DNA from: a virus
Lineage: Duplodnaviria > Caudoviricetes
DNA length: 64,000 nucleotides
Reading direction: 5' to 3' (one strand)
Virus record (IMG/VR): IMGVR_UViG_3300037418_000840
Shown in pieces: positions 34,569-52,909 of this stretch. Every line of letters begins with the position of its first letter. The first letter of the stretch is position 1. A program made the translations under genes and the position numbers. Below the pieces are notes generated by a model that saw nothing but the letters and a program-made list of their open reading frames with translations, did not search any database and had not been told where the DNA came from.

Positions 34569-35319
34569 CAAAGTTCAAGCCGGCCAGAAGCCCGATCCGA
34601 AAGACGGCAATGCCAAGGCTCGATACATCATGCACTACCGCATGAGCATCATGGCAGTGTTCCGGGCTATTCGTGAAGGACGCGTGTCCGAAGAAGAGCT
34701 CGATCGATTGCAGAATTTCTGTCAGTTCTCCCTCAACGCAATGCAGCGTTTGCCTATGACTGACATCCAAGGTGCTTGGCGTGATACCGAGATCTTCGGC
34801 CATATCCATGATGAAGAAGGTGCGACGTTCGTCGATCATCAGATCATCTTGGATCCAGCCAAGCAAGGACAGTCGGTGACCGCTGTCCAGTCGGAGACCA
34901 CGGCCAGCACCCCGTCTCAGCTACCGGGCCGCATCCGTGATTCGATCGACAAGTGGATCGATGAGGAATTCACTGCATACGAAAAGCTCGATGAAGTGGA
35001 GAAGGCGATGGTCCGCAACGCGGCGACTATGGCGTCTGGCCTTCAGGGTGACGTGACTCCCGATCAAATACTGGCGGGCAACACGCACAATACGACGGAG
35101 CTCTCTTTACTGCACGCTGATCTTGTGCAGACAATGCCTGCGGCCAGCACTCGTTTCACTGATGACCAGATGGAGTACAAACTATTCGGCTTCCTCTGGC
35201 ACGGTCGTAAGATTATTCTGTGCGATGACGGGATCGGTGTGTTCGTCAGTCGTTCAACAGCCCGCGAAGTGTATCGCACATACGGGCCAGCGCAATCAGC
35301 GACTGTGGTCGGTGCGTAA
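34537..35319 (+). CDS. hypothetical protein
   Basis: start MAKTKK. Confidence 0.65.
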   Translation: MAKTKKTHTRNKVQAGQKPDPKDGNAKARYIMHYRMSIMAVFRAIREGRVSEEELDRLQNFCQFSLNAMQRLPMTDIQGAWRDTEIFGHIHDEEGATFVDHQIILDPAKQGQSVTAVQSETTASTPSQLPGRIRDSIDKWIDEEFTAYEKLDEVEKAMVRNAATMASGLQGDVTPDQILAGNTHNTTELSLLHADLVQTMPAASTRFTDDQMEYKLFGFLWHGRKIILCDDGIGVFVSRSTAREVYRTYGPAQSATVVGA

Positions 35320-35322
35320 ATA
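35316..35322 (+). promoter_or_regulatory. GTAAATA late-type promoter ahead of ncRNAs
   Basis: recurrent motif placed a few nt before a structured RNA. Confidence 0.6.
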
Positions 35323-35324
35323 GG

Positions 35325-35441
35325 TAGGTCGAGATAGACAGTGATCGGTCCTTTCAACTAGCAGTACGTTAAAGCAACGAATCGGGTCGCAACTCACACG
35401 CCGGGTGAGATCTGGTTTTATCCCAGATCACTGCTTGACTA
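35325..35441 (+). ncRNA. Y-RNA-like structured RNA
   Basis: GTCGAG-(ATAGA bulge)-CAGTGATC pairs with GATCACTG-CTTGAC; internal hairpins. Confidence 0.5.
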
Positions 35442-35442
35442 A

Positions 35443-35519
35443 GATGGGGATAGTAGATCGGAGTAGACGCTCGCGCAACGCCTAGCACGAGAGAGGGGGT
35501 TCGACTCCCCACCCCATCC
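35443..35519 (+). ncRNA. tRNA-like RNA, aberrant D/anticodon arms, no CCA
   Basis: GATGGGG/CCCCATC acceptor, GGGGG-TTCGACT-CCCC T arm. Confidence 0.55.
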
Positions 35520-35539
35520 GATTAACCTAAGAGGTTCCT

Positions 35540-35854
35540 ATGAACATAAGTGAAGCATTTGTTGATGCCGATGCGTATCATGAAATCGGCAAGGCTATGG
35601 CAGCCTTTATTATGGAATCCGCACAGCGTCCGGGGTTCATGCGCACGTTGGAATTCCATCGAACCAATCACACGGTCGAGGAATTCACCAAGCAAGAACA
35701 GATCCAGGTCGATCGTATCAAACGGAAGCACCGTCACCTGACGTTGGTCGACGATCGCTACTTGGTACGCGCTCTCCGCCGCCAAGCCTATGCTGGTCCC
35801 AAGAGCACACGCCGTCGATACACCGCAGACCTCCGTCCGTACACTTCGGACTAA
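35540..35854 (+). CDS. hypothetical protein
   Basis: GAGG RBS. Confidence 0.6.
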   Translation: MNISEAFVDADAYHEIGKAMAAFIMESAQRPGFMRTLEFHRTNHTVEEFTKQEQIQVDRIKRKHRHLTLVDDRYLVRALRRQAYAGPKSTRRRYTADLRPYTSD

Positions 35855-35870
35855 CCAACAGTTCACTGCC

Positions 35871-36287
35871 ATGATCCCTGTCGATCAGGAGTTCATCCAT
35901 CGGCCAGATGAAGGACAGCACGGAGATTGCTTCCGTGCTGTCCTTGCGTCGCTTATGGAGCTCCCTCTTCAAGATGTTCCCCACTTTTTGCACGACGGCT
36001 GCTCGTCCGACACGTTTCATCGCCGGATCAACGCCTTTCTCGACCAGTTCAACATGACGCTCCTGGTGTTCGACGCGTCGACGTTCAACATTAGTGCGTG
36101 GATTGACCAGTCCGGAGTCCGTGATCTGTGGCACGAAGTGTCCGGCATGACCGAACGCGGGGTTCTTCATTCATGTGTGGGCCACAATGGTCACGTGGTC
36201 CACGATCCGCATCCTAGCAAGGCTGGTCTGATCGACGTCCAGTACTACAGCCTGCTCGTATCCATCAACCCTAAAGTTCAACGGTGA
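35871..36287 (+). CDS. hypothetical protein
   Basis: GDCFRAVLASL...HSCV pattern; possibly a papain-like fold. Confidence 0.6.
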   Translation: MIPVDQEFIHRPDEGQHGDCFRAVLASLMELPLQDVPHFLHDGCSSDTFHRRINAFLDQFNMTLLVFDASTFNISAWIDQSGVRDLWHEVSGMTERGVLHSCVGHNGHVVHDPHPSKAGLIDVQYYSLLVSINPKVQR

Positions 36288-37252
36288 CTCTCATGTTCAA
36301 TGTACTTGGCTTGGACAGCATCCATATGAATTCGGCAATGATTGGCCATCAAATATCGCTGGTCCATAACATGGAAGAAGCGAAGCCCGGCACCTTTGTC
36401 TATACGTTCATTGCCATTATGAGCGCTGGACGCTTCGGCCTCGATGGTGTGGCCGCCATCTCACATGGAGCGTCTCCCGAATTGGCGATCCATAATGTCA
36501 TCGACTACTACAAGCTGAAGAACAACAAAGAAGCACTGCTTCCGAAAGAGCTTCACGAGCTCGAAGAACACGAAGTCCAGTCCAAAGAGGCGCAGCGCCT
36601 CTTGACGTCCACGGCTCTTCCGTGGGAGACAGCCGGTACACCAAGCGCACGCCTACACTATCTGTTCGACGAGCTCGATCAACGGTTCCCTAACGCAGTT
36701 AGTCCGGTCAGCAGCGAGCCACCCGAGCCAAAGTATTTGGCGGCTATCGACAAACTCATGAAGACAGTCGACATGCTGACTGACGTGTCGGAGCAGTCTG
36801 ACGCAGATGACCTGAATACCTTTGGTCCGTGGATCGACCACGTGACTGACACTACAGCGGACGAGCCACGAGACTTGCAGACAGTCATGGGCCGTGCTCT
36901 AGAAGAGATGGTCGAAGGCTGTCTTTCGGCGGGCCTTACCTATGGAAAGATCATGGGACACGTGGCTGACGCGTGGCACAACCAATGTCTCAAGGAAAGT
37001 CGAAAGGCTGATCGCACTGTCTGGCCGTCGCAACTCCAGGACACGAGCGGATCCATCGACGAACTGGCGGGTGAGCTCGCTGACATACGACTGACCTTGG
37101 TTGACGTCATGTGGCTGGCTCGCGTCTCCGAAGCTAGGGTCCAGGCGTTGATGCATAAGAAGTATGCCAAACTCAAGGACGCGTGGTCCAACGGTCGACT
37201 CCGTATCACCGAGAGCAAGACCTTCTATCTTGTGAAGGACCACGTGAAATGA
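36284..37252 (+). CDS. protein with C-terminal MazG-like (all-alpha NTP pyrophosphatase) domain
   Basis: RALEEMVE...GELADIRLTLVDV. Confidence 0.6.
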   Translation: MTLMFNVLGLDSIHMNSAMIGHQISLVHNMEEAKPGTFVYTFIAIMSAGRFGLDGVAAISHGASPELAIHNVIDYYKLKNNKEALLPKELHELEEHEVQSKEAQRLLTSTALPWETAGTPSARLHYLFDELDQRFPNAVSPVSSEPPEPKYLAAIDKLMKTVDMLTDVSEQSDADDLNTFGPWIDHVTDTTADEPRDLQTVMGRALEEMVEGCLSAGLTYGKIMGHVADAWHNQCLKESRKADRTVWPSQLQDTSGSIDELAGELADIRLTLVDVMWLARVSEARVQALMHKKYAKLKDAWSNGRLRITESKTFYLVKDHVK

Positions 37253-37629
37253 ACGCCCCCACGTATTACATGCCCGTCCAGGTTGGTGACTACTACAAGT
37301 TGACGATCAACCGTTCGTTGAATCAACTGCGATGGGCATTCGACGGCCAATCAAGTAAGGGCTTAGACTACGTGGTTATCCGGGATGATCAACTGAAGTT
37401 CAGTCTTCGTTGGATGCATCCTGATGTCGACCACGTTCGGTGTACGGCCCTTGCCACGTTCGATAGTCCTTGGTCCGGTGCGTTCAACGATTACTGTCGA
37501 TTGTGTGTCGCTCGGTTCACAGTCGACGTCGAAGGACGCGAGCTCAAGCCATCAATTGTCTTCCTGGGACAGACATTCGTACCAGTTGCCAAGGTGCCCC
37601 TCACCTTAATCAAGGACATGTTCAAATGA
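37249..37629 (+). CDS. hypothetical protein
   Basis: ATGA coupling. Confidence 0.55.
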   Translation: MNAPTYYMPVQVGDYYKLTINRSLNQLRWAFDGQSSKGLDYVVIRDDQLKFSLRWMHPDVDHVRCTALATFDSPWSGAFNDYCRLCVARFTVDVEGRELKPSIVFLGQTFVPVAKVPLTLIKDMFK

Positions 37630-38606
37630 AACCCGTGTTTGCCGTACAGGTCACCAATCGTGATGACGAAGATCTTCATCAGACAGTGCGGGCCATCACC
37701 GGCGCTGGCTATGAATGGATCAACTTCGGAGTCGTTCCCTTCGAAGACTCGGTGACCAACGTCGAGGAGTTCCCAGCTGATCGTCCGGTGATCGTGTTAG
37801 GTGGGACGTTGGCACTTCGTCTTTATCAAGAGAACAAGTTGCCTCCGAACTGGTATATGTTCTATAGCTACTGGCTGTTCGATCAGCACTCGACCCAGCT
37901 GTCGCCGCTGAAGACCTACATGGTCAACGAAGATCCAGAGTTCTACACGTTCGATGACGTGCGTGACCGGGTTTTCAAGCACGACGTGTTTATCAAGCCG
38001 TCGTCAGACATGAAGGCTTTCGCAGGCACTCTGGTGTCGAAGGGTACGACACTCGAAGATCATCTTAAGACAGTGAATCACGCGCTGATCAAGCCCCATG
38101 AAATCATTATGGTGGCGTCGCCCATCCAACTCGGCTACGAATATCGTGTGTTCATTGTCAACAATAAGATCGTGGACTGTTCACAATATCGTAGTCCGCG
38201 TGGAGTCGAACATCGAGCAGTTGGGGTCGATACCGCAGTCAAGCTCAGCGAGTTCTTTGATGAGGTGAAGTCCTACATCGAGAGCACACCGCTGACCGGC
38301 ACCTACTGCATGGACGTGGCCGAGACCAAGAACGGCTATCGCATCGTCGAATTCAACTGCTTCAACTGCTGTGGCATGTACAGAGCCGATCGCGTGCTTG
38401 TCCTGAGTGAATTGGGGGGCCGTAGTCGAGGCAACGAAATGGGACTGACGTCGTACACCAAAAAGATGGTGGCCCATATAACGCTCTTCTCGATCTTGAC
38501 CATCATTGCCAAGTTTGACTCGACGCTGGCCCTCATCATTGCCTGTGTCTGGTTCTGCCCTTCTCCCAAAGCTGAAGAGACCAACAATGCCAAACGTAAA
38601 GAGTGA
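37626..38606 (+). CDS. ATP-grasp protein (R2K/DUF4343-like)
   Basis: VFIKPS..MKAFAG, EYRVFIV, MDVA...IVEFNCFN. Confidence 0.75.
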   Translation: MKPVFAVQVTNRDDEDLHQTVRAITGAGYEWINFGVVPFEDSVTNVEEFPADRPVIVLGGTLALRLYQENKLPPNWYMFYSYWLFDQHSTQLSPLKTYMVNEDPEFYTFDDVRDRVFKHDVFIKPSSDMKAFAGTLVSKGTTLEDHLKTVNHALIKPHEIIMVASPIQLGYEYRVFIVNNKIVDCSQYRSPRGVEHRAVGVDTAVKLSEFFDEVKSYIESTPLTGTYCMDVAETKNGYRIVEFNCFNCCGMYRADRVLVLSELGGRSRGNEMGLTSYTKKMVAHITLFSILTIIAKFDSTLALIIACVWFCPSPKAEETNNAKRKE

Positions 38607-39138
38607 AGTTCGCCGCGCTATCAACCTTCTCAAGAAGTCTGCGCATCTGACTTCCGATGATCTCTCGGAAGAGGCACGATACAACGCCACGATGGACTCG
38701 TCCTGGAATGGCAACCATTCAGCTACTAGCAATGCTATAGCCGCCTTGCGTAAGTCGATGGTCAACGATGCGCAACAGATTCTGCGCACGGTCCACGCTG
38801 TACTACCTGATGACCTCGAGCTCGATCCGCCAGTGCCTCAGACGTTCGCCAATCAATGGGCGGCCTACGTCAAGCTGGCGAAGAAGCCACACAGCGATTA
38901 CGTGGTCAAGTCACTCGACGAATTCCGTCTCGTGTTCTTGAAGCCGACGGACTACGATGCGTTTGCCATCGACACGAAGTTCCGCGAACGACTGCGTCAA
39001 CCCTCGGTCATCGATCAGGCCAAAGGTTTCATGGGGGTCTACACAGGCCCGGACCGTGAAGATACCGAGATCTACGTCGATGTCGGCGCATCCCCCACTT
39101 TGACGCACAGTGTTGGTATCTTGAAGGACAAGGAGTGA
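38587..39138 (+). CDS. hypothetical protein
   Basis: packed ORF. Confidence 0.6.
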   Translation: MPNVKSEVRRAINLLKKSAHLTSDDLSEEARYNATMDSSWNGNHSATSNAIAALRKSMVNDAQQILRTVHAVLPDDLELDPPVPQTFANQWAAYVKLAKKPHSDYVVKSLDEFRLVFLKPTDYDAFAIDTKFRERLRQPSVIDQAKGFMGVYTGPDREDTEIYVDVGASPTLTHSVGILKDKE

Positions 39139-39231
39139 TCATGAACTACTTAGATCAACATCATCCGGTGTTCATGCCGCGCGTTCAGGCAGTTGGACCT
39201 CCGTCCAACGGCGTGCGGCGGAGCACCGACT

Positions 39232-39534
39232 ATGGAACGCTTCAATCGTGCAGTTCGTCGTCATCATGTAGCACGTCTTAAGCACAAGCGTCGCAACTAT
39301 TGGGGGTGGGACCGTAGGCAGAGCACCCCGTTTGATCAAGTCCCACAAGCACCTGAGCCGATGCCGGTCGCACTTCTCGGCAAGATCGTGGCCACGCCTC
39401 AAATGTGCTCGTGTCTCGGTTGCGGAAATCAACGTCACAACACGGCTGGCTGGACACCGACGGTGCAAGAGCGCCGCTGGCTTGACCAGTATCGTGAACA
39501 ACTTGAAGAGGTAGAAGAAGATGCGAAATCTTGA
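39232..39534 (+). CDS. small basic Cys-containing phage protein
   Basis: RRHH..RLKHKR..YWG...TP..CSC..CGN. Confidence 0.6.
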   Translation: MERFNRAVRRHHVARLKHKRRNYWGWDRRQSTPFDQVPQAPEPMPVALLGKIVATPQMCSCLGCGNQRHNTAGWTPTVQERRWLDQYREQLEEVEEDAKS

Positions 39535-40051
39535 CAAGACTCGGAAGTACGAAGTATTGGACGTGACTACCACTTCGTGGGTGCCTGCTCACTGGGAGCA
39601 GCTTGACGAAGGAGACGTGGTTCGCAGTTGCGACTCAACGACTTACGATGGTCCTATGACCGAAGAGTACGTAGTGGCGCACCATCCGGCTCTCATGGTC
39701 GATGTAGTGAAGGGCCAATGTCGTAGACCAACCACCAAGTACAAGACGGTAGCCGGCGACACATTGAAAGCGTTGGCCGCCCGTCACGACGTGTCAACAC
39801 ACTTCATTCGCTACACAAACTGGATGCGTGATGAAGATGATGCGTCGCTCACAGAAGGGATCGAGCTCGAGCTTCCTGTCCCGACTCCGCGTCCGAAGTC
39901 AGAGCTAGATCTCAAGGTTGAACGTCTGCGCACAACTGCTCAAGCTATGATCGATGCCTTCGCACCCTACGTTGATCCCTCTTGGCCGTCCACCATTGAG
40001 TGGCAGAACTTCAAAGCTGCGTTGGATGCCTTTGGTACCGATCATGCGTGA
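39521..40051 (+). CDS. LysM-domain protein
   Basis: YKTVAGDTLKALAARHDVS....N......L..G.EL.LP. Confidence 0.7.
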   Translation: MRNLDKTRKYEVLDVTTTSWVPAHWEQLDEGDVVRSCDSTTYDGPMTEEYVVAHHPALMVDVVKGQCRRPTTKYKTVAGDTLKALAARHDVSTHFIRYTNWMRDEDDASLTEGIELELPVPTPRPKSELDLKVERLRTTAQAMIDAFAPYVDPSWPSTIEWQNFKAALDAFGTDHA

Positions 40052-40129
40052 GACTCGGTGATCGAATGTTGGTCCTCGTGTCTGAGAAGGCCCCAATTGT
40101 ATGAGGCAGCAGTAAATAGGTGAGCCAGT

Positions 40130-40207
40130 GCCCCGTTAGCTCTTAATTGGCAGAGCAGCGGATTTGTAATCCGAGGGTTGGGAGTTCGAGTCTCTCACGG
40201 GGCACCA
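40130..40207 (+). tRNA. tRNA-Thr(UGU)
   Basis: cloverleaf, loop TTTGTAA, ends ACCA. Confidence 0.92.
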
Positions 40208-40224
40208 TTCATCTAGAGGACATC

Positions 40225-40560
40225 ATGGCCAAGGTCAGCGTCAAAGGCACGTTTCACAAACAGGTCGAGGTCACACTCCCCGAATCGGAACTAGTCGATC
40301 ACGTGAAGGCCATCGTACGGCGACATCATAACATTCGTGAGGGCGATTTCCTTCGCGGAAACACGGTAGTCTACGATGATCCCGATCACCGACATGGTTC
40401 GATCCGAGAACTAGAACGTGGTCCAGCGTCTGAACTCCAGCTTCTCGGATTCCAGATCCTGGACTATCTTGGAAAGTTGAATCTCGTTCTCACGTCGGAA
40501 GAAAACCGGTCGATCATGGACTACGTACCGGGCCTACGCCGCCCCCAGTCCCCAATTTAA
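40225..40560 (+). CDS. hypothetical protein
   Basis: GAGGA RBS. Confidence 0.6.
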   Translation: MAKVSVKGTFHKQVEVTLPESELVDHVKAIVRRHHNIREGDFLRGNTVVYDDPDHRHGSIRELERGPASELQLLGFQILDYLGKLNLVLTSEENRSIMDYVPGLRRPQSPI

Positions 40561-40600
40561 CGTTCCTGTCGTTGCAGTAAATAGCACGGTAAGTCACGAA

Positions 40601-40676
40601 GCGAGCATACGTCAGTTGGTTAGACCACCGTCCTTCCAAGTCGGGAACCCGAGTTCGAATCTCGGTGCTCGCTCCA
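40601..40676 (+). tRNA. tRNA-Gly(UCC)
   Basis: loop CTTCCAA, ends TCCA. Confidence 0.9.
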
Positions 40677-40695
40677 TCCTTTCCGGGAGCTTTAA

Positions 40696-40950
40696 ATGCC
40701 CATCTTGGGATCGACTCCGTGTTGCGACAATCATCTGTGTGTCTGGCTTGAGAACGAGAACGAAGTACTCGGTAAGTGGTACAAACACCAGTGCGAACAC
40801 TGTGGAACTTGGATCTTCACGCTTCTGTCGAATCTGAGTCCGGTGTCGTACACTGAGGAAGCGTTCAAGGCTGAATACGAAATCGATGAAGCAACGAAGC
40901 AGATCAAGAAGCGCGAATCATCCGAAGGACAAGTCACAAGCGTGCCGTAA
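40696..40950 (+). CDS. small Zn-finger-like protein
   Basis: CC...CEHC. Confidence 0.55.
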   Translation: MPILGSTPCCDNHLCVWLENENEVLGKWYKHQCEHCGTWIFTLLSNLSPVSYTEEAFKAEYEIDEATKQIKKRESSEGQVTSVP

Positions 40951-40966
40951 ATACGGTAAGCACAGC

Positions 40967-41041
40967 GCGGGCGTAGTTCAGTGGTAGAATTCTTGCTTGC
41001 CAAGCAAGAGGTCACGGGTTCGACCCCCGTCGCCCGCTCCA
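40967..41041 (+). tRNA. tRNA-Gly(GCC)
   Basis: loop TTGCCAA, ends TCCA. Confidence 0.93.
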
Positions 41042-41120
41042 AGTTTCACGAACGTTCGTTCTGTCGTTTCGACTTGTAAGGTCCCCGTCTGAATTGACGA
41101 ACGTTCCCTTTGTCTTCTGT

Positions 41121-41196
41121 TCCGCTTAACGCACAACGGTGTGCGGCCGGACTGTTAATCCGTGTGAGTCAGGTTCGATTCCTGAAGGCGGAGCCA
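41121..41196 (+). tRNA. tRNA-Asn(GUU)
   Basis: loop CTGTTAA, ends GCCA; A at position 8. Confidence 0.88.
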
Positions 41197-41222
41197 CCAA
41201 TTCCATCGTCAACGAGAACAAG

Positions 41223-41507
41223 ATGAAACTCCTCCCACTGTATGACCGAGTCCTTGTCAAGCCCCTCGACAAGAAAACCGAATCGGGTATCGTGATTGCC
41301 GGTTCGTCTGACCGAAACGATCAAGGCGAAGTCGTTGCCGTTGGTCCGGGTCCGATCCTCAACGACGGGACACAGAAGCCTCTGGCTGTCCAGGTCGGCG
41401 ACACCGTGATGTTCGTCCCTGGAACCGGTCATCCAGTGAAGATCGACGGCGAAGACATGCGTGTCTTCCCCGAGTTCGAACTCGTTGGCATCCTCCGCGA
41501 GGACTAG
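41223..41507 (+). CDS. groES: co-chaperonin GroES
   Basis: LLPLYDRVLVK...TESGIVI...GEVVAVGPG...VQVGDTV. Confidence 0.93.
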   Translation: MKLLPLYDRVLVKPLDKKTESGIVIAGSSDRNDQGEVVAVGPGPILNDGTQKPLAVQVGDTVMFVPGTGHPVKIDGEDMRVFPEFELVGILRED

Positions 41508-41509
41508 AC

Positions 41510-41947
41510 ATGAGCGGACGCCCGGTCAAGATTCTTCACCTAATGGTGGGTTCGGACAATTGGAAGCCGACACACGAGGAGTTGATTCAAGTAATTGAAT
41601 GCTTCGAATCAGCGTGCGAAGGCGGGAAGAAGTCGTTGTCTGCCGACGCAGCGGCCAAAGAAACAATGGTCGCAGTGGCAACGAATCACGAAGTGAAATC
41701 GGAAGTCCTTTCCATAACGGAAGACGATCCGATTTATGTTCTCGCCAACTTTGAATCACTTCGCGAGACAATTGCCCGTCGACTCCTCAACGAATTCTTG
41801 ATCGACTCGGCAACGCATCAACCGTTACCGCTCGATGCCTCGAAGGACACGGTGAATGGCTTCCATCTTTGCCTCAGCAATTTGAAGAAGCGAATTGAAG
41901 AACTCCTCGCAGAGGAGACGAAGGTTAGCGACAACAGACAGGCTTAA
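41510..41947 (+). CDS. hypothetical protein
   Basis: packed after groES. Confidence 0.6.
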   Translation: MSGRPVKILHLMVGSDNWKPTHEELIQVIECFESACEGGKKSLSADAAAKETMVAVATNHEVKSEVLSITEDDPIYVLANFESLRETIARRLLNEFLIDSATHQPLPLDASKDTVNGFHLCLSNLKKRIEELLAEETKVSDNRQA

Positions 41948-42018
41948 CCAGATACCGAAATTTCTGGTCTGTCCTGGGTCGTCAAAACCGGGAACCGCGT
42001 CTAGACGCGACCCGGCCT

Positions 42019-42095
42019 CGGAGCGTAGCGCAGCCCGGTAGCGCATCTGATTTGGGATCAGAGGGTCGCAGGTTCGAATCCTGTCGCTCCGACCA
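42019..42095 (+). tRNA. tRNA-Pro(UGG)
   Basis: loop TTTGGGA, ends ACCA. Confidence 0.93.
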
Positions 42096-42109
42096 GTTTT
42101 GTTTCACTT

Positions 42110-42271
42110 GTCCAGGATGCCAGAGTGGTTTAATGGTAGCTGAGTGGCCGAGTGGTGTGCGAGTTCCTGAAAGGAGCCGTAGTTCTAGACTGCGAGCCTT
42201 TAAACGGGGACGGCGGTGTCTCAGGCTGCCAGTCAAACACCCACGTAGGTTCGAATCCTACCCTGGACGCC
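42110..42271 (+). ncRNA. oversized tRNA-like RNA (about 160 nt)
   Basis: GTCCAGG/CCTGGAC acceptor, D arm and T arm enclose 107 nt; ends GCCT, no CCA. Confidence 0.7.
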
Positions 42272-42508
42272 TTATGAACGACGATTTGGTATTTGGATAA
42301 AGGGCACAAACTTGAATGCCGTGTGCGGCGAGAAGTGTGGTCCTCCAGCCTAGAATCGTCGTCCATAAGGCTTGACTTCTTAGGTGTGCGGGTTCGAGTC
42401 CCGATCGCTGGCCGAGACTATGGTAGACACAGCGGGCGGTAGCCACTCCGTCCGTGGAGCGCGCGGCCGGTGGGCCGTCCCTAAAAGACGGAACACCTAA
42501 GAGGTTAA
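42269..42508 (+). ncRNA. two long-stem RNA domains, the second with a T-arm-first tRNA-like core
   Basis: 17-bp and 16-bp closing helices, back to back. Confidence 0.6.
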
Positions 42509-42509
42509 G

Positions 42510-42716
42510 ATGAACAGTCCAAGTGCAGAGCAGGTTAGACTCTCACGAGTCCGAGCAGGTCTCACTCAGAAGCAAGCTGCTTCAGTTGTCTACGTCGGCG
42601 AACGTATGTGGCAGCGGTATGAAGCTGGGACATATGAAATGCATCCAGGACTGTGGGAACTGTTTCGTTACAAGGTCTTCCACGTTAGACCAGACCCAAT
42701 CACGGCTGGAGACTAG
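42510..42716 (+). CDS. XRE-type HTH protein
   Basis: RLSRVRAGLTQKQAASVVYVGERMWQRYEAG. Confidence 0.75.
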   Translation: MNSPSAEQVRLSRVRAGLTQKQAASVVYVGERMWQRYEAGTYEMHPGLWELFRYKVFHVRPDPITAGD

Positions 42717-42717
42717 C

Positions 42718-42972
42718 ATGACGACCATGAACGTACGAGACTTGATCTACGAGACTAAGGAATACGAAGGTCCTCTCAACCTTCCAGGAAAATCCATTGA
42801 ATGCCCCGAATGCAAGATTTTCTACGAGGCTAGTAAATGGAGTGCATGGGATTGCCCATGCGATTCATGCGGATCGCATCCAATCTTACTGTGTCCTGAG
42901 CGCCATACATTTGATCCGTATGGTGGAGATGACTTAGACTTGCAGGTCAAAGACGATGGCGTTGATCAGTAA
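42718..42972 (+). CDS. Cys-rich Zn-binding protein
   Basis: CPEC, CDSC, CP..H. Confidence 0.55.
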   Translation: MTTMNVRDLIYETKEYEGPLNLPGKSIECPECKIFYEASKWSAWDCPCDSCGSHPILLCPERHTFDPYGGDDLDLQVKDDGVDQ

Positions 42973-43138
42973 TCGAGAATTCTTCGATCCGGAATTCTAC
43001 CGGTTCATGCAGCAAGATTTCGAGGACATACGACGCAGACGTAAGCAACTGAAAGGACGACCCGATTCTGAACAGATGGCCGTCCTTGAATGTGAGCGTC
43101 AGTTCGAAGCCTTCTACAAGAAGTTCCTCGATTTGTAG
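42956..43138 (+). CDS. hypothetical protein
   Basis: packed ORF. Confidence 0.5.
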   Translation: MALISNREFFDPEFYRFMQQDFEDIRRRRKQLKGRPDSEQMAVLECERQFEAFYKKFLDL

Positions 43139-43142
43139 ATTT

Positions 43143-43230
43143 GGAAATGTGGCTGAGTGGGTTAAGGCAGCGGCGTGCTAAGCCGTCGAGTCGCGAGGCT
43201 CCGTTGGTTCGAATCCAACCATTTCCGCCA
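43143..43230 (+). tRNA. tRNA-Ser(GCU)
   Basis: long V arm, loop GTGCTAA, ends GCCA. Confidence 0.9.
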
Positions 43231-43327
43231 AGTAGTTCGTCTCTGAGGCGTTGGGTCAGCACCAACCGGCTCTCTCGTGGATACGAGGGGGCTGTGGTCT
43301 AGCGGTAAGGGCGCAGGGACGAACGCT
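43231..43327 (+). ncRNA. circularly permuted tRNA mimic (YrlA-like topology)
   Basis: order: closing stem, T-like arm, loop-closed acceptor-like stem, D arm, closing stem. Confidence 0.7.
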
Positions 43328-43333
43328 CGTTGA

Positions 43334-43421
43334 GGAAGCGTGGCTGAGTGGGTTAAGGCAGCGGTCTTGAAAACCGTCGTCGGGAAACCGGCCGTGAGTT
43401 CGAATCTCACCGCTTCCGCCA
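43334..43421 (+). tRNA. tRNA-Ser(UGA)
   Basis: loop CTTGAAA, long V arm, ends GCCA. Confidence 0.93.
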
Positions 43422-43492
43422 TTGTCGCAGTCTTCGTGTCACGCGTGGATAACAGGCATCCTGTGCTTGCCAAGTCGGACACGGAAATTCAC

Positions 43493-43560
43493 GGACCACT
43501 AACTCAGTGGTAGAGCGCCTCGTTAGAGGTTGGTCACGGGTTCGATTCCCGTGTGGTCCG
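43493..43560 (+). ncRNA. tRNA-like RNA with 4-nt anticodon loop, no CCA
   Basis: canonical D and T arms; GCCTC-GTTA-GAGGT. Confidence 0.7.
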
Positions 43561-43603
43561 TGTCACCGATTCAAGATGGTGTAGTAAATACTAAGGTAAC
43601 GTC

Positions 43604-43689
43604 GGACGTGTAGTGTAAGTGGTCAAAACCAGTGGACTGTAAATCCGCCGCCTCGTGCTTCGTAGGTTCGAATCCTACCGCGTCCACCA
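43604..43689 (+). tRNA. tRNA-Tyr(GUA)
   Basis: loop CTGTAAA, ends ACCA. Confidence 0.9.
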
Positions 43690-43718
43690 CTTCCTTAGAC
43701 TAGTTAGAAATCTTAGAT

Positions 43719-43792
43719 GCGGCCGTATCTCAATGGTAGAGACCCGGATTGTGATTCCGGTTACGTGAGTTCGATTCTCACCGGTCGCCCCA
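43719..43792 (+). tRNA. tRNA-His(GUG)
   Basis: loop TTGTGAT, C73-CCA; T rather than G at -1. Confidence 0.9.
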
Positions 43793-43827
43793 TAGGCCAC
43801 GAAGGCGGTCGCATCTAAGATTTCTGT

Positions 43828-43904
43828 AGCGGGATAGAGCAGCTAGGTAGCTCGTCGGGCTCATAATCCGAAGGTCGGAGGTTCAAATCCTTCTCCCGCA
43901 ACCA
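43828..43904 (+). tRNA. tRNA-fMet(CAU)
   Basis: 1:72 mismatch, loop CTCATAA, initiator-like D arm. Confidence 0.88.
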
Positions 43905-43913
43905 CCGTGTTGT

Positions 43914-44037
43914 GATCGCACTAAGGTCGTAGGAATGGACTAATCATCCGGACCCCAATTTCCATGGCCGCGCAGTAACCTCGTTACTGAGCCGTCTGGT
44001 GGTGTAGACCTGTCGGGAACGTGTTCCCGACGCGATC
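43914..44037 (+). ncRNA. unassigned multibranch structured RNA
   Basis: GATCGC/GCGATC closing stem plus several perfect hairpins. Confidence 0.4.
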
Positions 44038-44066
44038 AGCCTTTAGCTGTAGATTGTGAGGTCTTC

Positions 44067-44258
44067 ATGGACGCTCAACAGTACAAAAGCGCTATAGACG
44101 CGCTCCAGGACGGACCTCAATTGGTGCCTCGTACAGTAATCTACGACGGAGTTCTTTACGAACGTCGTCCTACGATAAGTGTGTGCTGGACCCCGAATGA
44201 TGGTTGGTCTGTCAAAGAGTACGACAAGATCGAGACTCAAAGTTTGAAGGCGTCATAG
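44067..44258 (+). CDS. hypothetical protein
   Basis: GAGG RBS; stop overlaps tRNA-Asp 5' end. Confidence 0.5.
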   Translation: MDAQQYKSAIDALQDGPQLVPRTVIYDGVLYERRPTISVCWTPNDGWSVKEYDKIETQSLKAS

Positions 44259-44325
44259 AACAATTGGTTAGTTCACCGGCCTGTCACGCCGGAGGTTACG
44301 GGTTCGAGTCCCGTTGACGTCGCCA
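44249..44325 (+). tRNA. tRNA-Asp(GUC)
   Basis: loop CTGTCAC, ends GCCA. Confidence 0.93.
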
Positions 44326-44384
44326 GTTAAACGGCGCGCGAATGGACATGCCAGTCCATGGTTTGAAACTTCGCTCGGCGTTTC

Positions 44385-44472
44385 GGGTGAGTAGTTCAGT
44401 GGTTAGAACACGGGCGACGCCTTCTCCGGTAGAAATCGCCTGAGGTCGTAGGTTCGAATCCTATCTCACCCA
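44385..44472 (+). ncRNA. tRNA-like RNA with elongated anticodon arm, no CCA
   Basis: GGGTGAG/CTCACCC acceptor; 7-bp stem around an 18-nt insert. Confidence 0.7.
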
Positions 44473-44563
44473 TCTTGTTTCAATGGGACAGCATTCTGAT
44501 TGGTCAGCCATCGGCGTCTGTGTTGACGCAACGTGCGGACACAAGAGGAGTGCGGTCCCGCCC

Positions 44564-44641
44564 GGGACCGTAGCTCAACGGATTTAGAGTAGTGGCCTAC
44601 GAAGCCATTGGTTGGGGGTTCGAATCCCTCCGGTCCCACCA
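44564..44641 (+). tRNA. tRNA-Arg(ACG)
   Basis: loop CTACGAA, ends ACCA. Confidence 0.92.
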
Positions 44642-44653
44642 TTCATGCAGTAC

Positions 44654-44730
44654 AGTGGGGTAGCTCAGACGGTTAGAGCGTTCGCTTGATAAGCGAGAGG
44701 TCGGAGGTTCGACTCCTCTCCTCACTACCA
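44654..44730 (+). tRNA. tRNA-Ile(GAU)
   Basis: loop TTGATAA, ends ACCA. Confidence 0.92.
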
Positions 44731-44738
44731 AGAAGTCC

Positions 44739-44814
44739 GGACAGGTAACTCAGTTGGTAGAGTGCTAGACTGAAAATCTAGTGGTCGCTGGTTCGATTCC
44801 AGTCCTGTCCACCA
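44739..44814 (+). tRNA. tRNA-Phe(GAA)
   Basis: loop CTGAAAA, ends ACCA. Confidence 0.93.
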
Positions 44815-44853
44815 AGTTGTTTCAGTACCGTGTAGTAAATAGGTTGTGTCTGT

Positions 44854-44932
44854 TGGGGGTTAGCCAAGTCCGGTCCAAGGCAGTTGGTTTTGATCCAACC
44901 ATTCACAGGTTCGAATCCTGTACCCCCTGCCA
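44854..44932 (+). tRNA. tRNA-Gln(UUG)
   Basis: loop TTTTGAT, ends GCCA. Confidence 0.88.
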
Positions 44933-44943
44933 CTCACTCCTGT

Positions 44944-45018
44944 GTGTGATTCGTCTAGCGGTTAGGACACTGCCCTTTCACGGCGGTAACACGAGTTCGA
45001 ATCTCGTATCGCACGCCA
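44944..45018 (+). tRNA. tRNA-Glu(UUC)
   Basis: loop CTTTCAC, ends GCCA. Confidence 0.92.
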
Positions 45019-45042
45019 TTCATTGATTCATCGTTTCATGCA

Positions 45043-45118
45043 GGGGCTTTAGTTCAGCTGGTAGAACAGCGGTCTCCAAAGCCGCGTGTCGGGAGTTCGA
45101 GTCTCTCAGGCCCCGCCA
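45043..45118 (+). tRNA. tRNA-Trp(CCA)
   Basis: loop CTCCAAA, ends GCCA. Confidence 0.92.
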
Positions 45119-45128
45119 CCGTTTTTAT

Positions 45129-45191
45129 AGGGCGTCCCAGTCGTAGTAGTGTCGAACCCCCGTCGGCGCTGCTCGGGGACGCCCTCTTTTA
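45129..45191 (+). terminator. long hairpin with U-tract ending the tRNA run
   Basis: AGGGCGTCCC/GGGACGCCCT followed by CTTTT. Confidence 0.55.
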
Positions 45192-45209
45192 TACCCATAG
45201 AGGTTCCAA

Positions 45210-45524
45210 ATGTCCGCCCAAGACGTGAACGTGCGTGAAGTGCCCGGCAACATCTCGATCCCTGACCTGAGTGATTATCATGGAACAGTCGCTGAACTGG
45301 AGCTCAGGGTAAATGCGCTAGCTCACGTATATGGTGGCGACTCAATCATCTCGTTCGACGCCGGACACAACAACATCGAAGCAGTGCTCGTAACTCGGGC
45401 CAGTATCGACGCTCACACGAAGGCCGTTCAAACCAAGGCCGAACGTCGCTCGTCCAAGAGGCGCGAGAAGCTGCAACGGCGCATCGCCGAACTTCAACAG
45501 GAACTGGAAGACCTCCATGACTGA
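45210..45524 (+). CDS. hypothetical protein
   Basis: GAGG RBS. Confidence 0.6.
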   Translation: MSAQDVNVREVPGNISIPDLSDYHGTVAELELRVNALAHVYGGDSIISFDAGHNNIEAVLVTRASIDAHTKAVQTKAERRSSKRREKLQRRIAELQQELEDLHD

Positions 45525-45717
45525 TGAAGTCTTGGTGTTAGAGGCGGCACTAAAGGCTCTGACCCGTAGATTCGACGAATTCGTGGGTCAGTGCATGGAC
45601 GATGCGGGAAAGCCGCGTGCGCCGTCGCCGAAGGCACTGGCCCAGGCTCGTGCCTGCCTTCCGCCTGAAACCACAAAGAACGGATACGCGTCTAAGTTCA
45701 AACCGGCGGCGATGTGA
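45517..45717 (+). CDS. hypothetical protein
   Basis: stop overlaps tRNA-Cys 5' end. Confidence 0.55.
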   Translation: MTDEVLVLEAALKALTRRFDEFVGQCMDDAGKPRAPSPKALAQARACLPPETTKNGYASKFKPAAM

Positions 45718-45784
45718 CTGAGTGGTCTAAGGTCCGGGTCTGCAAAACCTTGGTTCGTGGGTTCGAATCCCACCATCGCCTCCA
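45708..45784 (+). tRNA. tRNA-Cys(GCA)
   Basis: loop CTGCAAA, ends TCCA. Confidence 0.9.
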
Positions 45785-45792
45785 TACGTTGT

Positions 45793-45868
45793 GGGCCGTT
45801 AGCTCATTGGTCAAGAGCCGTGGACTCATAATCCACTGGTGACGGTTCGATTCCGTCACGGCCCACCA
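45793..45868 (+). tRNA. tRNA(CAU), probably Ile2 (lysidine type)
   Basis: loop CTCATAA; GGGCC acceptor with C4-G69 and C5-G68. Confidence 0.85.
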
Positions 45869-45885
45869 TTCATTAAGGATCTAGC

Positions 45886-46104
45886 ATGTCTAACAACACG
45901 TTGCAAAGATCGCAATCAGCAATCAAGACACTGAGCGAAACCGTACAGCGTGCTTATGCTCACGCTAGGTCACTGGGCTACACAGGATCATCGCTTGAGT
46001 ACGCGATGCTGATCCTACCGGAGGACACGCTTGTTACGGACAACACTGGATACTCGGGCACGCTGCGAGACACTCCTTCGATTAGTGAACTGTTGAACAT
46101 CTAG
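45886..46104 (+). CDS. hypothetical protein
   Basis: AAGGA RBS. Confidence 0.5.
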   Translation: MSNNTLQRSQSAIKTLSETVQRAYAHARSLGYTGSSLEYAMLILPEDTLVTDNTGYSGTLRDTPSISELLNI

Positions 46105-46241
46105 TTTTGAGCAGCACCAAGTCCTGCACGAGCGCAGGCGATTGACAGCGGTCAACGGTGAAGCCCGCGCGTTGCGAAGTCACCGGATACACAAAGGAGG
46201 CTATCATGCGTACACATTAGGTGATCTAATGGAGGACCAGC

Positions 46242-46415
46242 ATGAAAGCAAAACGTTTCGCTCATCGAGTTCCCAACCTCGGTCCCGGTGGTTGGCGCTG
46301 TCCCTGCTGTGGCCCATCGCCACGTCATCGTCGTAAGACGCGTCAGCAGCAGCGGCGTATCTTCAGCCGATTGATCGATAAGATCGAACGCCTGGAGGCC
46401 AGCGAGGAACTCTGA
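46242..46415 (+). CDS. 57-aa basic Cys-motif protein (below ORF-track cutoff)
   Basis: GGAGG RBS; MKAKRFAHRVPNLGPGGWRCPCCG... Confidence 0.6.
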   Translation: MKAKRFAHRVPNLGPGGWRCPCCGPSPRHRRKTRQQQRRIFSRLIDKIERLEASEEL

Positions 46416-46442
46416 TCGAGTGAACCAGACAAGGAGTCCTAA

Positions 46443-46601
46443 GTGTCGACCAAGCGTGATCGTCTTTTGTCAGGTCTGTTCTTTGGCCTGTTGACTGCTG
46501 TTGGTCTTGCCCTCGTAGTCTTCCTTTCGATGGTCAATATCCTTCGTTGGGAAGATTGTCGCGCGCACTACAGCTTCAGCTACTGCTTGTTCATGCGTTA
46601 G
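46443..46601 (+). CDS. 52-aa membrane protein (below ORF-track cutoff)
   Basis: AAGGAG RBS, GTG start, one TM helix. Confidence 0.55.
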   Translation: MSTKRDRLLSGLFFGLLTAVGLALVVFLSMVNILRWEDCRAHYSFSYCLFMR

Positions 46602-52651: not shown

Positions 52652-52880
52652 TCTACAGACCGACTCCGTGTCTACTAGTAAATAGTAGGCACGGTGGTAG
52701 TGTGATTCTAGTCCATTCCTCTACGTCAAGCGCTCTGTCGTATGAAGTCCGCTCGCGTTCACGGCGCGGGGCACCACGGGGCGCGATGCGCACTTCGGTG
52801 CAAGGGTTTGACGTCTGACCTCTCACATTGCGTATCATCTGGAGCATTTCCAAGTTTGGCTCCAGAGTATGGCAGAGTGC

Positions 52881-52909
52881 TTGACGTAGGGGTTGCAAAT
52901 GAATAGACT
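52881..52909 (+). promoter_or_regulatory. sigma70-type promoter
   Basis: TTGACG-17 nt-TAGACT. Confidence 0.6.

What the first reader, a model, noticed from the sequence alone, without database searches (positions are those of the whole stretch)
35325..44472. Family of CCA-less tRNA mimics with intact elbow but remodelled anticodon arm, interleaved with real tRNAs
All 18 canonical tRNAs here end in an encoded CCA and have 7-nt anticodon loops. At least six other elements keep acceptor/D/T features but alter the anticodon arm, each in a different way, and none has CCA. They are 35443 (14-nt loop), 42110 (107-nt domain), 42372 (permuted, T arm first), 43231 (permuted, anticodon arm replaced by the RNA ends), 43493 (4-nt loop) and 44385 (elongated arm). 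Random decay should hit stems and T/D loops as well, yet these are mostly preserved. Inference: a dedicated set of non-decoding tRNA mimics, for example decoys or inhibitors of host anticodon-nuclease defences (PrrC/RloC, PARIS AriB, retron PtuAB type), ligands of tRNA-elbow readers, or Ro60 cargo. Ala, Val, Leu and Lys isotypes are missing from this window, and some mimics resemble Val, Lys or Leu scaffolds.
Basis: partly seen in the sequence, partly recalled or inferred. Interest (0 to 1): 0.88.

Follow-up and report, generated by a model that had tools for sequence, protein, structure and literature searches.

The report
Conserved non-decoding tRNA look-alikes in phage
A soil jumbo phage related to Ralstonia phage phiRSL1 carries, among its 19 normal tRNA genes, six tRNA-derived RNAs that cannot decode; at least four are kept in shape by compensating mutations in a distant relative, so they are working RNAs of unknown target, not dead tRNA genes.

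Summary
All six elements are in the sequence. The four with normal strand order (35443, 42110, 43493, 44385) have a 7/7 acceptor plus a T arm, against 0.1 such hits expected by chance. All four lack CCA, while 19 of 19 canonical tRNAs encode it.

The window is a phiRSL1-like jumbo phage from rhizosphere and soil. A syntenic relative (L031/L039; proteins 32-70% identical) holds homologues of four elements with compensatory pair changes:
- 42372: 42 pairs, none broken, 76% identical, as conserved as real tRNAs.
- The 35443 leader RNA: 11 of 18 pairs changed on both sides.
- 43231: 4 double changes, none broken.
- 42110: 2 double changes in 10 pairs.

Strain variants show no differences across 42039-42516, although coding flanks differ by 1.3-1.9%. 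tRNA-likes with cut-down or swollen anticodon arms recur in phiRSL1, BcepSauron and three IMG/VR relatives.

So these are selected, non-decoding tRNA-body mimics, not plain pseudogenes. 42372 and 43231 have YrlA topology and resemble the two-headed RNA that follows a DUF7873 gene in phiRSL1 and L039. The window holds neither Ro60 nor DUF7873. The scan found that DUF7873-RNA pair before on other DNA.

The decoy and anti-nuclease function is untested. 43493 and 44385 have no homologue.

The parts
35316..35322 (+). GTAAATA promoter-like motif that starts the leader RNA unit
   Evidence: The motif occurs 13 times on the + strand of the window. Six of these lie directly before a tRNA or tRNA-like element. 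It is conserved before the homologous leaders in L031 and L037.
35327..35441 (+). 5' rod domain of the leader RNA: a long closing helix with internal hairpins
   Evidence: The closing helix covaries among the window, L031 and L037, for example CG>GC, CG>AU and AU>UA.
35443..35519 (+). tRNA-like domain of the leader. It has a 7-bp acceptor, a weak D arm, a 6-bp stem with an 8-nt loop holding GCCU, a T arm and no CCA. The RBS and ATG (35540) follow 20 nt later.
   Evidence: 7/7 acceptor plus T arm. Homologues lie at L031 2029-2106 and L037 8128-8205. Of 18 pairs, 11 changed on both sides and 2 are broken. The downstream ORF is 52% identical to the L037 ORF.
42110..42271 (+). Giant class-II-like tRNA-like RNA. 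It has a 7-bp acceptor, a Leu-type D arm, a 107-nt rod in place of the anticodon and variable arms, a T arm, G73 and then CCU.
   Evidence: ARAGORN with introns. Fold z -2.52. The L031 ~10707-10822 counterpart shares the D-loop motif, T arm and acceptor 3' strand; of 10 pairs, 2 are double changes. No differences in strain contigs.
42269..42372 (+). Domain A: a long hairpin closed by a 17-bp helix, lying between the two tRNA-like domains
   Evidence: Part of the 420-nt block that folds with z -5.35. Invariant in the X12 and X16 contigs. No homologue was found.
42372..42508 (+). Domain B: a permuted tRNA-like RNA. The order is closing helix, T arm (GCGGG-UUCGAGU-CCCGA), a long capped acceptor-like arm with an internal UGG-AGA motif, a 3' hairpin, then the closing helix. 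In this phage the 3' strand of the closing helix contains the Shine-Dalgarno of the HTH gene (ATG 42510).
   Evidence: The homologue at L031 10466-10600 lies between two tRNA-Ser genes with no ORF behind it. It is 76% identical; of 42 pairs, 3-4 changed on both sides, 8-10 on one side, and none is broken. Model R1 hits the phiRSL1 head at 18.6 bits.
43231..43327 (+). Permuted Glu-derived tRNA-like RNA. It has an 11-bp closing helix, a T-like arm (GUUGG-GUCAGCA-CCAAC), an 11-bp capped acceptor hairpin with a UGGAUA loop, and a D arm (GUCU-AGCGGUAA-GGGC).
   Evidence: Fold z -4.64. The homologous core is at L031 11536-11605 (helix strings from 11540). Of 19 pairs, 4 are double changes and none is broken, and the UGGAUA loop is identical. 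Model R2 hits both phiRSL1 heads at 23-27 bits.
43493..43560 (+). tRNA body with a 12-nt mini anticodon hairpin (CCUC-GUUA-GAGG), G73 and no CCA. The flanks extend the acceptor to 10 bp.
   Evidence: Rfam tRNA 43 bits, with the alignment showing the deletion. Fold z -2.77. No homologue in L031. Analogous mini-arm elements occur in G001/G004, BcepSauron and the L031 giant element.
44385..44472 (+). tRNA body with a 7-bp anticodon stem and an 18-nt loop, A73 and no CCA
   Evidence: Rfam tRNA 58.3 bits. Fold. Strain variants carry G>A in the loop (44428) and a change of G.U to G-C in the T stem (44464). No homologue was found.

Best explanation
The six elements are tRNA-derived structured RNAs that have lost decoding and are kept by selection. 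I call them tRNA-body mimics.

Shown:
- They lie on the tRNA strand, behind the phage's GTAAATA promoter-like motifs, interleaved with canonical tRNAs.
- They keep acceptor and T arms, and mostly the D arm.
- They lack an encoded CCA.
- Four of them keep their helices through compensatory changes in a distant syntenic relative.

Inferred:
- They are transcribed with the tRNAs and cut out by the tRNA-maturation enzymes. RNase P would cut at their own acceptor, and processing of neighbouring tRNAs would free the permuted ones.
- They then act by offering a tRNA body without an anticodon to a factor that reads the acceptor, T arm or elbow, not to the ribosome's decoding site.

The set is mixed:
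- 42372 and 43231 are circularly permuted (T arm, capped acceptor, D position, closing helix). This is the YrlA layout. They resemble the heads of the two-headed RNA that follows a DUF7873 gene in phiRSL1 and in L039, so a protein partner of that kind, or a host one, is the likeliest target.
- 35443 is the 3' domain of a conserved leader RNA (promoter, rod, tRNA-like, RBS, ORF). It may also work in cis, as a processing site or a structure that sets the mRNA's 5' end.
- 42110, 43493 and 44385 are free-standing tRNA bodies with swollen or cut-down anticodon arms.

What they bind, and whether that counters a tRNA-targeting host defence, is not known.
For: - The elements are real and not chance. 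There are 21 T-arm-plus-acceptor hits against 0.097 expected. CCA is encoded in 19/19 canonical tRNAs and 0/4 of these.
- Divergence of the relative L031/L039/L037: proteins are 32-70% identical and canonical tRNAs 67-92%.
- Domain B is 76% identical, with 42 pairs, none broken and 3-4 double changes.
- Leader tRNA-like: 11 of 18 pairs changed on both sides. The rod helix also covaries. Its downstream ORF is orthologous, at 52%.
- 43231 core: 4 double changes, none broken, and an identical UGGAUA cap.
- Strain contigs from two runs show 0 differences over 42039-42491 and 42071-42516. Their coding pieces differ by 1.3% and 1.85%, so about 6 and 8 differences were expected.
- Domain B sits at a different place in L031, between two tRNA-Ser genes with no ORF behind it. 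It is therefore a self-contained module.
- The design recurs across the clade:
  - a mini anticodon hairpin in G001/G004 (with CCA), BcepSauron (with CCA) and the L031 giant element;
  - rod-like anticodon arms in phiRSL1 (124 nt) and G002 (114 nt);
  - the complete G002 genome has only non-canonical tRNA-likes.
- phiRSL1 ORF270 is DUF7873 (E 1e-69). It is followed by a promoter and two permuted heads; one scores 32 bits on Rfam YrlA. L039 has the same module.
- Models R1 and R2, built from 42372 and 43231, have those heads as their best hits outside the two lineages they were built from, at 18.6-26.9 bits.
- Contigs of an RNA-seq run cover 42422-43419, 43392-43721 and 44054-45543. This is weak, because DNA can be present in such libraries.
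Against: - There is no direct evidence of discrete transcripts, processing, binding or phenotype.
- Covariation rests on two or three sequences per element. Helix strings for three elements were aligned by hand.
- 43493 and 44385 have no homologue.
- The giant element 42110 aligns only in its tRNA-like parts. Its CUA-bearing hairpin is not a loop in L031.
- No TROVE or DUF7873 gene lies in the window. At the syntenic DUF7873 site the window keeps only a degenerate head, so elements of this kind do decay here.
- R1 and R2 scores in the 20s are also reached by a junction of two adjacent tRNAs (window 44901-44969, 21.6 bits).
- Ascertainment favours elements that keep an acceptor and a T arm.
Confidence: 0.6

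Rival explanations
1. The elements act in cis. They would be tRNA-shaped processing and regulatory modules of the operon transcripts: RNase P/Z cleavage sites that free or stabilise the neighbouring mRNAs, or leader structures that gate translation. On this view they are not trans-acting mimics.
For: - Promoter-tRNA-ORF units are the rule here. The gap from a tRNA 3' end to the next ATG is only 11-20 nt, for Thr, Gly, Asn and Met2.
- 35443 ends 20 nt before an ATG. Its leader is syntenic with an orthologous ORF in L037.
- The closing helix of 42372 pairs with the Shine-Dalgarno of the HTH gene.
- The features that are kept, acceptor plus T arm, are what RNase P needs (general knowledge).
- In relatives, tRNA-likes often sit just before an ORF (L018 6013-6084, phiRSL1 124-nt element).
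Against: - In L031 the domain B homologue lies between two tRNA genes with no ORF or RBS behind it. It still keeps the 'RBS-like' closing strand.
- 42110, 43231, 43493 and 44385 are flanked by tRNAs that already supply processing sites.
- A bare cleavage signal would not need the strongly conserved internal hairpin of domain B (AGCGGGCGGUAGCCA.UCCG).
Confidence: 0.2
2. The elements are tRNA pseudogenes and rearrangement debris from a fast-turning tRNA array. They would be caught before they decayed beyond recognition.
For: - The array is dynamic. A 94% variant (L030) lacks one tRNA-ORF unit and carries a swapped ORF.
- Strain contigs skip 43911-44053 and insert 115 nt between the Ile and Phe tRNAs.
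- phiRSL1 head 1 looks like tandem Leu tRNA copies in decay.
- The window's own 52678-52905 head has lost its T and D loops.
- 43493 and 44385 have no homologue.
- Only elements that keep an acceptor and a T arm can be recognised, which biases what is seen.
Against: - Four elements are conserved with compensatory changes at a divergence where proteins are 32-70% identical.
- Domain B is as conserved as bona fide tRNAs.
- 446-453 nt of non-coding sequence is invariant in strains whose coding sequence differs by 1.3-1.9%.
- G002 keeps only non-canonical forms.
Confidence: 0.1
3. Some of the elements are still decoding or chargeable tRNAs of unusual build. Examples would be unknown small introns removed after transcription, or a suppressor using the CUA hairpin of 42110. 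They would supply the missing Ala, Val, Leu and Lys.
For: - Four direct-topology elements and four missing isotypes.
- ARAGORN can read 42110 and 44385 as intron-bearing tRNAs.
- ARAGORN calls the L031 leader element tRNA-Gly(GCC), with a 7-nt loop.
- Several relatives' elements end in CCA.
Against: - The inserts of 11-107 nt are far below group I intron size, and no intron family was hit.
- No U33 or purine-37 context can be recovered.
- None of the elements has G3:U70. Discriminators G73 (42110, 43493) and C73 (35443) do not fit Leu, Lys, Val or Ala (sequence, plus general identity rules).
- L031 lacks the same four isotypes without matching elements.
- The CUA hairpin is not conserved as a loop.
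Confidence: 0.05

Closest known systems
YrlA-type bacterial and phage Y RNAs (Rfam RF02553; Chen et al. 2014, PMC4201824)
   Same: 42372 and 43231 share the YrlA layout: closing helix, T arm, loop-capped acceptor-like stem, then a D-position arm. They are tRNA mimics that cannot decode. A clade member, phiRSL1, has an element that matches RF02553 over its full length at 32 bits.
   Different: - No Rfam hit falls on the window's elements at E up to 10.
- There is no GNCGAAN0-1G motif near the 5' end.
- No Ro60/TROVE gene is in the larger ORFs of the window that I scanned or in five related records. Published YrlA genes lie within about 4 kb of Ro60 (PMC4201824).
DUF7873-associated two-headed permuted tRNA-mimic RNA
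   Same: - The heads have the same permuted design.
- phiRSL1 and the L031/L039 phage carry the full module: a DUF7873 gene, a promoter, then two heads.
- The T arm of domain B is nearly identical to that of head 2.
- The window keeps a homologous but degenerate head 1 at 52678-52905.
   Different: 42372 and 43231 are single heads at other places. No DUF7873 is in the 64-kb window. L031 has both the module and these extra heads, so they are paralogues and not the same RNA.
Phage tRNAs that counter tRNA-targeting defences (van den Berg et al. 2023, PMC10264068; Burman et al. 2024, PMC11464382; Azam et al. 2024, PMC11555353)
   Same: Both are encoded in phage tRNA arrays, and both differ from standard tRNAs in the anticodon arm. 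Related jumbo phages carry several RNA-repair ligases (PMC7824862), so conflict over tRNA is plausible in this clade.
   Different: The published cases are functional, decoding tRNAs with point changes in the loop. The elements here have no usable anticodon loop and no CCA. A decoy role is conjecture.
tRNA-like processing signals such as mascRNA at the MALAT1 3' end (Rfam RF01684), and tmRNA tRNA-like domains
   Same: An acceptor and T-arm module is used for recognition by tRNA enzymes without decoding. The layout of the 35443 leader, a rod followed by a tRNA-like domain, recalls this.
   Different: These are other organisms and contexts. No Rfam match falls on the six elements. The one weak mascRNA-menRNA row (20.8 bits, E 2.3) lies on the canonical tRNA-Cys at 45708-45780, outside the finding. 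There is no G3:U70 and no tag frame. A true permuted tmRNA exists in relative G005 but not here.

Membership tests
Canonical tRNA (Rfam RF00005) | Score at or above the gathering threshold of 29 bits | tested here: inconclusive
   Met by 43493 (43 bits) and 44385 (58.3 bits). Not met by 35443, 42110, 42372 or 43231.
Canonical tRNA (Rfam RF00005) | A 5-bp anticodon stem with a 7-nt loop | tested here: not met
   The anticodon region is an 8-nt loop on a 6-bp stem (35443), a 107-nt rod (42110), a 4-nt loop (43493), or an 18-nt loop on a 7-bp stem (44385). It is absent in the two permuted elements.
Canonical tRNA (Rfam RF00005) | Encoded 3' CCA, as in every canonical tRNA of this phage | tested here: not met
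   19/19 canonical tRNAs have NCCA and 0/4 direct-topology elements do.
YrlA (Rfam RF02553) | The order T arm, capped acceptor-like stem, D arm, enclosed by a helix made of the RNA ends | tested here: met
   This is the topology of 43231 and 42372, supported by covariation with L031. However, the T loop of 43231 is non-canonical in the window, and the D-position loop of 42372 has no GG.
YrlA (Rfam RF02553) | Covariance-model score at or above 69 bits | tested here: not met
   No hit at E up to 10 on either element. The only weak hits lie at junctions between tRNAs.
YrlA (Rfam RF02553) | A GNCGAAN0-1G motif near the 5' end (PMC4201824) | tested here: not met
   The motif is absent from both 5' strands. 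GACGAACG occurs only on the 3' strand of the 43231 closing helix.
YrlA (Rfam RF02553) | Encoded next to a Ro60/TROVE gene | tested here: not met
   No PF05731 in phiRSL1, BcepSauron, G001, G002 or G005. None in the 48 window ORFs scanned: 38 of 150 aa or more, plus 10 inside the array. The rest of the genome was not seen.
DUF7873-associated two-headed tRNA-mimic RNA (scan-internal) | Adjacent to a DUF7873 (PF25283) gene | tested here: not met
   tblastn of the L031 DUF7873 against the window finds nothing (best E 3.9). The feature is met in phiRSL1 and L039.
DUF7873-associated two-headed tRNA-mimic RNA (scan-internal) | Structural similarity of the head | tested here: inconclusive
   R1 hits phiRSL1 head 2 at 18.6 bits and L039 head 2 at 12.4 bits. 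R2 hits the phiRSL1 heads at 26.9 and 23 bits. A junction of two tRNAs scores 21.6 bits.
Permuted tmRNA (Rfam RF04321) | Model match, a G3:U70 acceptor and a tag reading frame | tested here: not met
   No hit in the window. No G3:U70 in any element. Only sub-threshold ARAGORN calls.
tRNA pseudogene | No constraint: helices decay at the rate of neutral sequence | tested here: not met
   Compensatory changes occur in four elements, and 446-453 nt are invariant in strains. This could not be tested for 43493 and 44385.
Intron-bearing bacterial tRNA (group I) | An intron of about 200 nt or more in the anticodon loop that matches an intron family | tested here: not met
   The inserts are 11-107 nt, and no intron family was hit at E up to 10.

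The most novel reading that the evidence does not exclude
The phage uses a toolkit of anticodon-less tRNA bodies as uncleavable competitive ligands. These include mini-arm, giant-arm and permuted forms. They would titrate or misdirect host factors that recognise the tRNA body. The main candidates are tRNA-targeting defence nucleases. Another is a DUF7873-type ribonucleoprotein working without Ro60. If so, this would be an RNA-based counter-defence distinct from the known 'replacement tRNA' strategy.
Probability: 0.2. Interest if true: 0.9.

Novelty: new variant of a known kind. Interest (0 to 1): 0.68.

Why it matters
Phage tRNA arrays are usually read as codon supplements or as replacements for cleaved host tRNAs. 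Odd entries are written off as pseudogenes. Here several such entries are under selection for shape while being unable to decode.

That points to a second use of the tRNA fold by phages: as a ligand. The finding also links a cultured model phage (phiRSL1, and its relative BcepSauron) to Ro60-less YrlA-like RNAs. Pull-downs, deletions and defence-system panels can therefore be run on phages that are already in culture.

Tried and rejected
Searches for closer relatives that found nothing:
- megablast against GenBank phages found tRNA pieces only.
- Protein-seeded scans of IMG/VR with ORF 41510 and with R2K found none. HTH hits there were unrelated phages.
- The GroES search gave only a 97% variant, and then 54% or less.
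- Two exact-pattern scans of JGI metagenome contigs found 0 hits.
- Two exact-pattern scans of IMG/VR with conserved blocks of domain B found 0 hits.
- BLAST of 42096-42515 against nine related records found T-arm words only.
- R2K homologues P0128, P0130 and P0132 turned out to be non-syntenic phages.

Other dead ends:
- The window's own genome is not held, so 167 kb could not be searched for DUF7873, TROVE or RNA ligases.
- A first alignment of the 35443 leader to G002 was not convincing.
- A permuted-tmRNA reading of 42372 was rejected.
- A BHB or group I intron reading was rejected.
- The supplementary tables of Chen et al. are not held.
- Read laying used contigs only, so it gives no transcript ends or levels. 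Parts without cover say nothing.
- Complex prediction and structure prediction were not used, because no partner protein is in the window.

Full report
**What the window is**

The DNA polymerase (60479-63706) is 58% identical to those of Ralstonia phage phiRSL1 and Burkholderia phage BcepSauron. IMG/VR relatives reach 66-71%. The contig is 231.6 kb. Near-identical DNA occurs in rhizosphere, root and soil runs of 13 studies. No whole genome is held.

**The observation**

ARAGORN and Rfam find 19 canonical tRNAs for 16 isotypes. Ala, Val, Leu and Lys are absent.

- 44385 scores 58.3 bits on Rfam tRNA and 43493 scores 43 bits.
- In 43493, four letters replace the 9 central positions of the anticodon arm.
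- 42110 appears only when introns are allowed.
- 35443 is a weak tRNA-Sec-like hit.

A scan for a T arm followed by a 7/7 acceptor gives 21 hits in 35001-46500. Shuffles give 0.097, and the other 52.5 kb holds 1. All 19 canonical genes encode CCA, and none of the four direct-topology elements does.

Fold z-scores are -4.64 (43231), -2.77 (43493), -2.52 (42110), -1.88 (44385), -1.47 (35443) and -0.77 (42372). The whole 42096-42515 block reaches -5.35. It forms three closed domains.

**Distant relatives hold the same kinds of element**

- G002 is a complete 217-kb genome. It has no canonical tRNA, only a 114-nt tRNA-like with a swollen anticodon arm, a Phe-derived one with a 17-nt loop, and two more.
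- G001 and G004 have, right after tRNA-Met, a 69-nt cloverleaf with a CCUG-AUGU-CAGG mini hairpin and CCA.
- BcepSauron has a 70-nt one with a 13-nt arm and CCA.
- phiRSL1 has a 124-nt one with a rod-like arm, plus two permuted elements.

**The decisive relative**

The HTH protein behind 42372 led to a 237-kb JGI contig (L031/L039, with a second sample as L032) and to L037. Synteny holds across R2K ATP-grasp, GroES, tRNA-Pro, HTH, the tRNA array, NMT1-like, GT-D-like and DNA polymerase. Proteins are 32-70% identical and canonical tRNAs 67-92%.

- **Domain B.** The L031 homologue (10466-10600) is 76% identical. All 42 predicted pairs are kept, with 3-4 double and 8-10 single changes. It lies between the two tRNA-Ser genes with no ORF behind it. 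The closing helix that covers the HTH Shine-Dalgarno in the window is therefore part of the RNA itself.
- **The 35443 unit.** The unit is promoter, 115-nt rod, tRNA-like domain, RBS and ORF. It is conserved in L031 and L037. The rod helix covaries. In the tRNA-like domain 11 of 18 pairs changed on both sides. The ORF is orthologous, at 52%.
- **The 43231 core.** Its counterpart is at L031 11536-11605, next to tRNA-Glu. The UGGAUA cap is identical, 4 pairs are double changes and none is broken. There the T loop is canonical.
- **The 42110 element.** The L031 counterpart (~10707-10822) shares the Leu-type D loop, the T arm and the acceptor 3' strand. It has a mini anticodon hairpin and a 40-nt variable arm.
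- 43493 and 44385 have no counterpart.

**Strain-level evidence**

Contigs from two DNA runs cover 42039-42491 and 42071-42516 without a single difference. Their coding pieces differ by 44/3471 and 55/2976 letters, so about 6 and 8 differences were expected. The two runs may share a strain.

44385 shows a change in the loop and a G.U to G-C change in the T stem. Contigs of an RNA-seq run cover three of the elements. This does not prove transcription.

**Link to known mimics**

Rfam YrlA matches a phiRSL1 element over its full length at 32 bits. That element is the second of two permuted heads behind a GTAAATA motif, directly after ORF270. ORF270 is a DUF7873 protein (E 1e-69). L039 has the same module. 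Earlier notes of this scan describe that pairing in many bacteria and phages. I used them as a lead and confirmed the adjacency in these two phages only.

Models built from 42372 (R1) and 43231 (R2) have these heads as their best hits outside the two lineages they were built from, at 18.6-26.9 bits. A junction of two tRNAs reaches 21.6 bits, so the likeness lies largely in generic tRNA features plus topology.

The window has no DUF7873. No TROVE was found in the window ORFs scanned or in five relatives' records. At the syntenic site (52678-52905) the window keeps a homologous head 1 whose T and D loops have decayed. It has no head 2 and no DUF7873 gene.

**Reading**

Pseudogene decay is contradicted for four elements. 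A purely cis role fits 35443 and perhaps 42372 in this phage. It does not fit domain B in L031 or the elements flanked by tRNAs.

Decoding is unlikely. The elements have no usable loop, no CCA and no G3:U70, their discriminators do not fit, and no intron family matches.

The best reading is a maintained set of tRNA-body mimics released from the tRNA operons. Two are of YrlA or DUF7873-RNA design. What they bind is unknown.

The anti-nuclease decoy idea remains a conjecture. It is plausible in a clade that carries several RNA-repair ligases (PMC7824862), and in view of published tRNA-based counter-defence (PMC10264068, PMC11464382, PMC11555353).

Noticed in passing
window 43905-44045; L031 11150-11285; L025 (BcepSauron) 5822-5950: A further conserved non-coding RNA of about 130 nt lies in the array. 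It shares the blocks GUUGUG, UCGUAGGAAGGG and GUGUAGA, has 13 pairs changed on both sides, and has no Rfam match. Some strain contigs skip 43911-44053.
   Followed up: partly
window 52678-52905: This is a degenerate homologue of head 1 of the DUF7873-associated RNA. It has a promoter and a capped acceptor CCUCUAC/GUAGGGG closing a well-conserved long hairpin. The T loop is UGUGAUU and the D loop is lost. There is no head 2 and no DUF7873 gene, although both are present at this site in L039.
   Followed up: partly
window 35316, 40112, 40577, 40947, 43584, 44835 and 7 more on the + strand: GTAAATA is a recurrent promoter-like motif. It often heads a promoter-tRNA-ORF unit in which the ATG lies 11-20 nt after the CCA. 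The same motif and layout occur in phiRSL1, BCSR5, G001, G002 and L031.
   Followed up: partly
window 41121-41196: The tRNA-Asn(GUU) is atypical. It scores 28.9 bits on Rfam, just under threshold, and has a 6-bp D stem with a 4-nt loop. The L031 counterpart at 8865-8941 scores only as weakly tRNA-Sec-like.
   Followed up: no
window 41042-41120: The spacer between Gly and Asn holds the palindrome ACGAACGUUCGU and a second GACGAACG. It differs at 1 of 79 positions in a variant (L030) that is 93-95% identical overall.
   Followed up: no
L017 (G005) 7139-7530: A more distant relative carries a true two-piece (permuted) tmRNA. It scores 75.5 bits on Rfam tmRNA_permuted and its tag is AANDSSFDQRLAA.
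   Followed up: no
window 35327-35337 with 35434-35440: The terminal helix of the leader rod is GGUCGAG/CUUGACU (GGUCAGG/CCUGACU in L031). It recalls the Ro60-binding GGUCCGA helix of Y RNAs but lacks the bulged C. The 5' motif is cited in PMC4201824; the 3' strand is from my memory. There is no Rfam Y_RNA hit.
   Followed up: no
window 44731-44738 and 40643-40942: The array differs between strains. One RNA-run contig has 115 other letters between tRNA-Ile and tRNA-Phe. L030 lacks one Gly-tRNA-plus-ORF unit and carries a different ORF after GroES.
   Followed up: no
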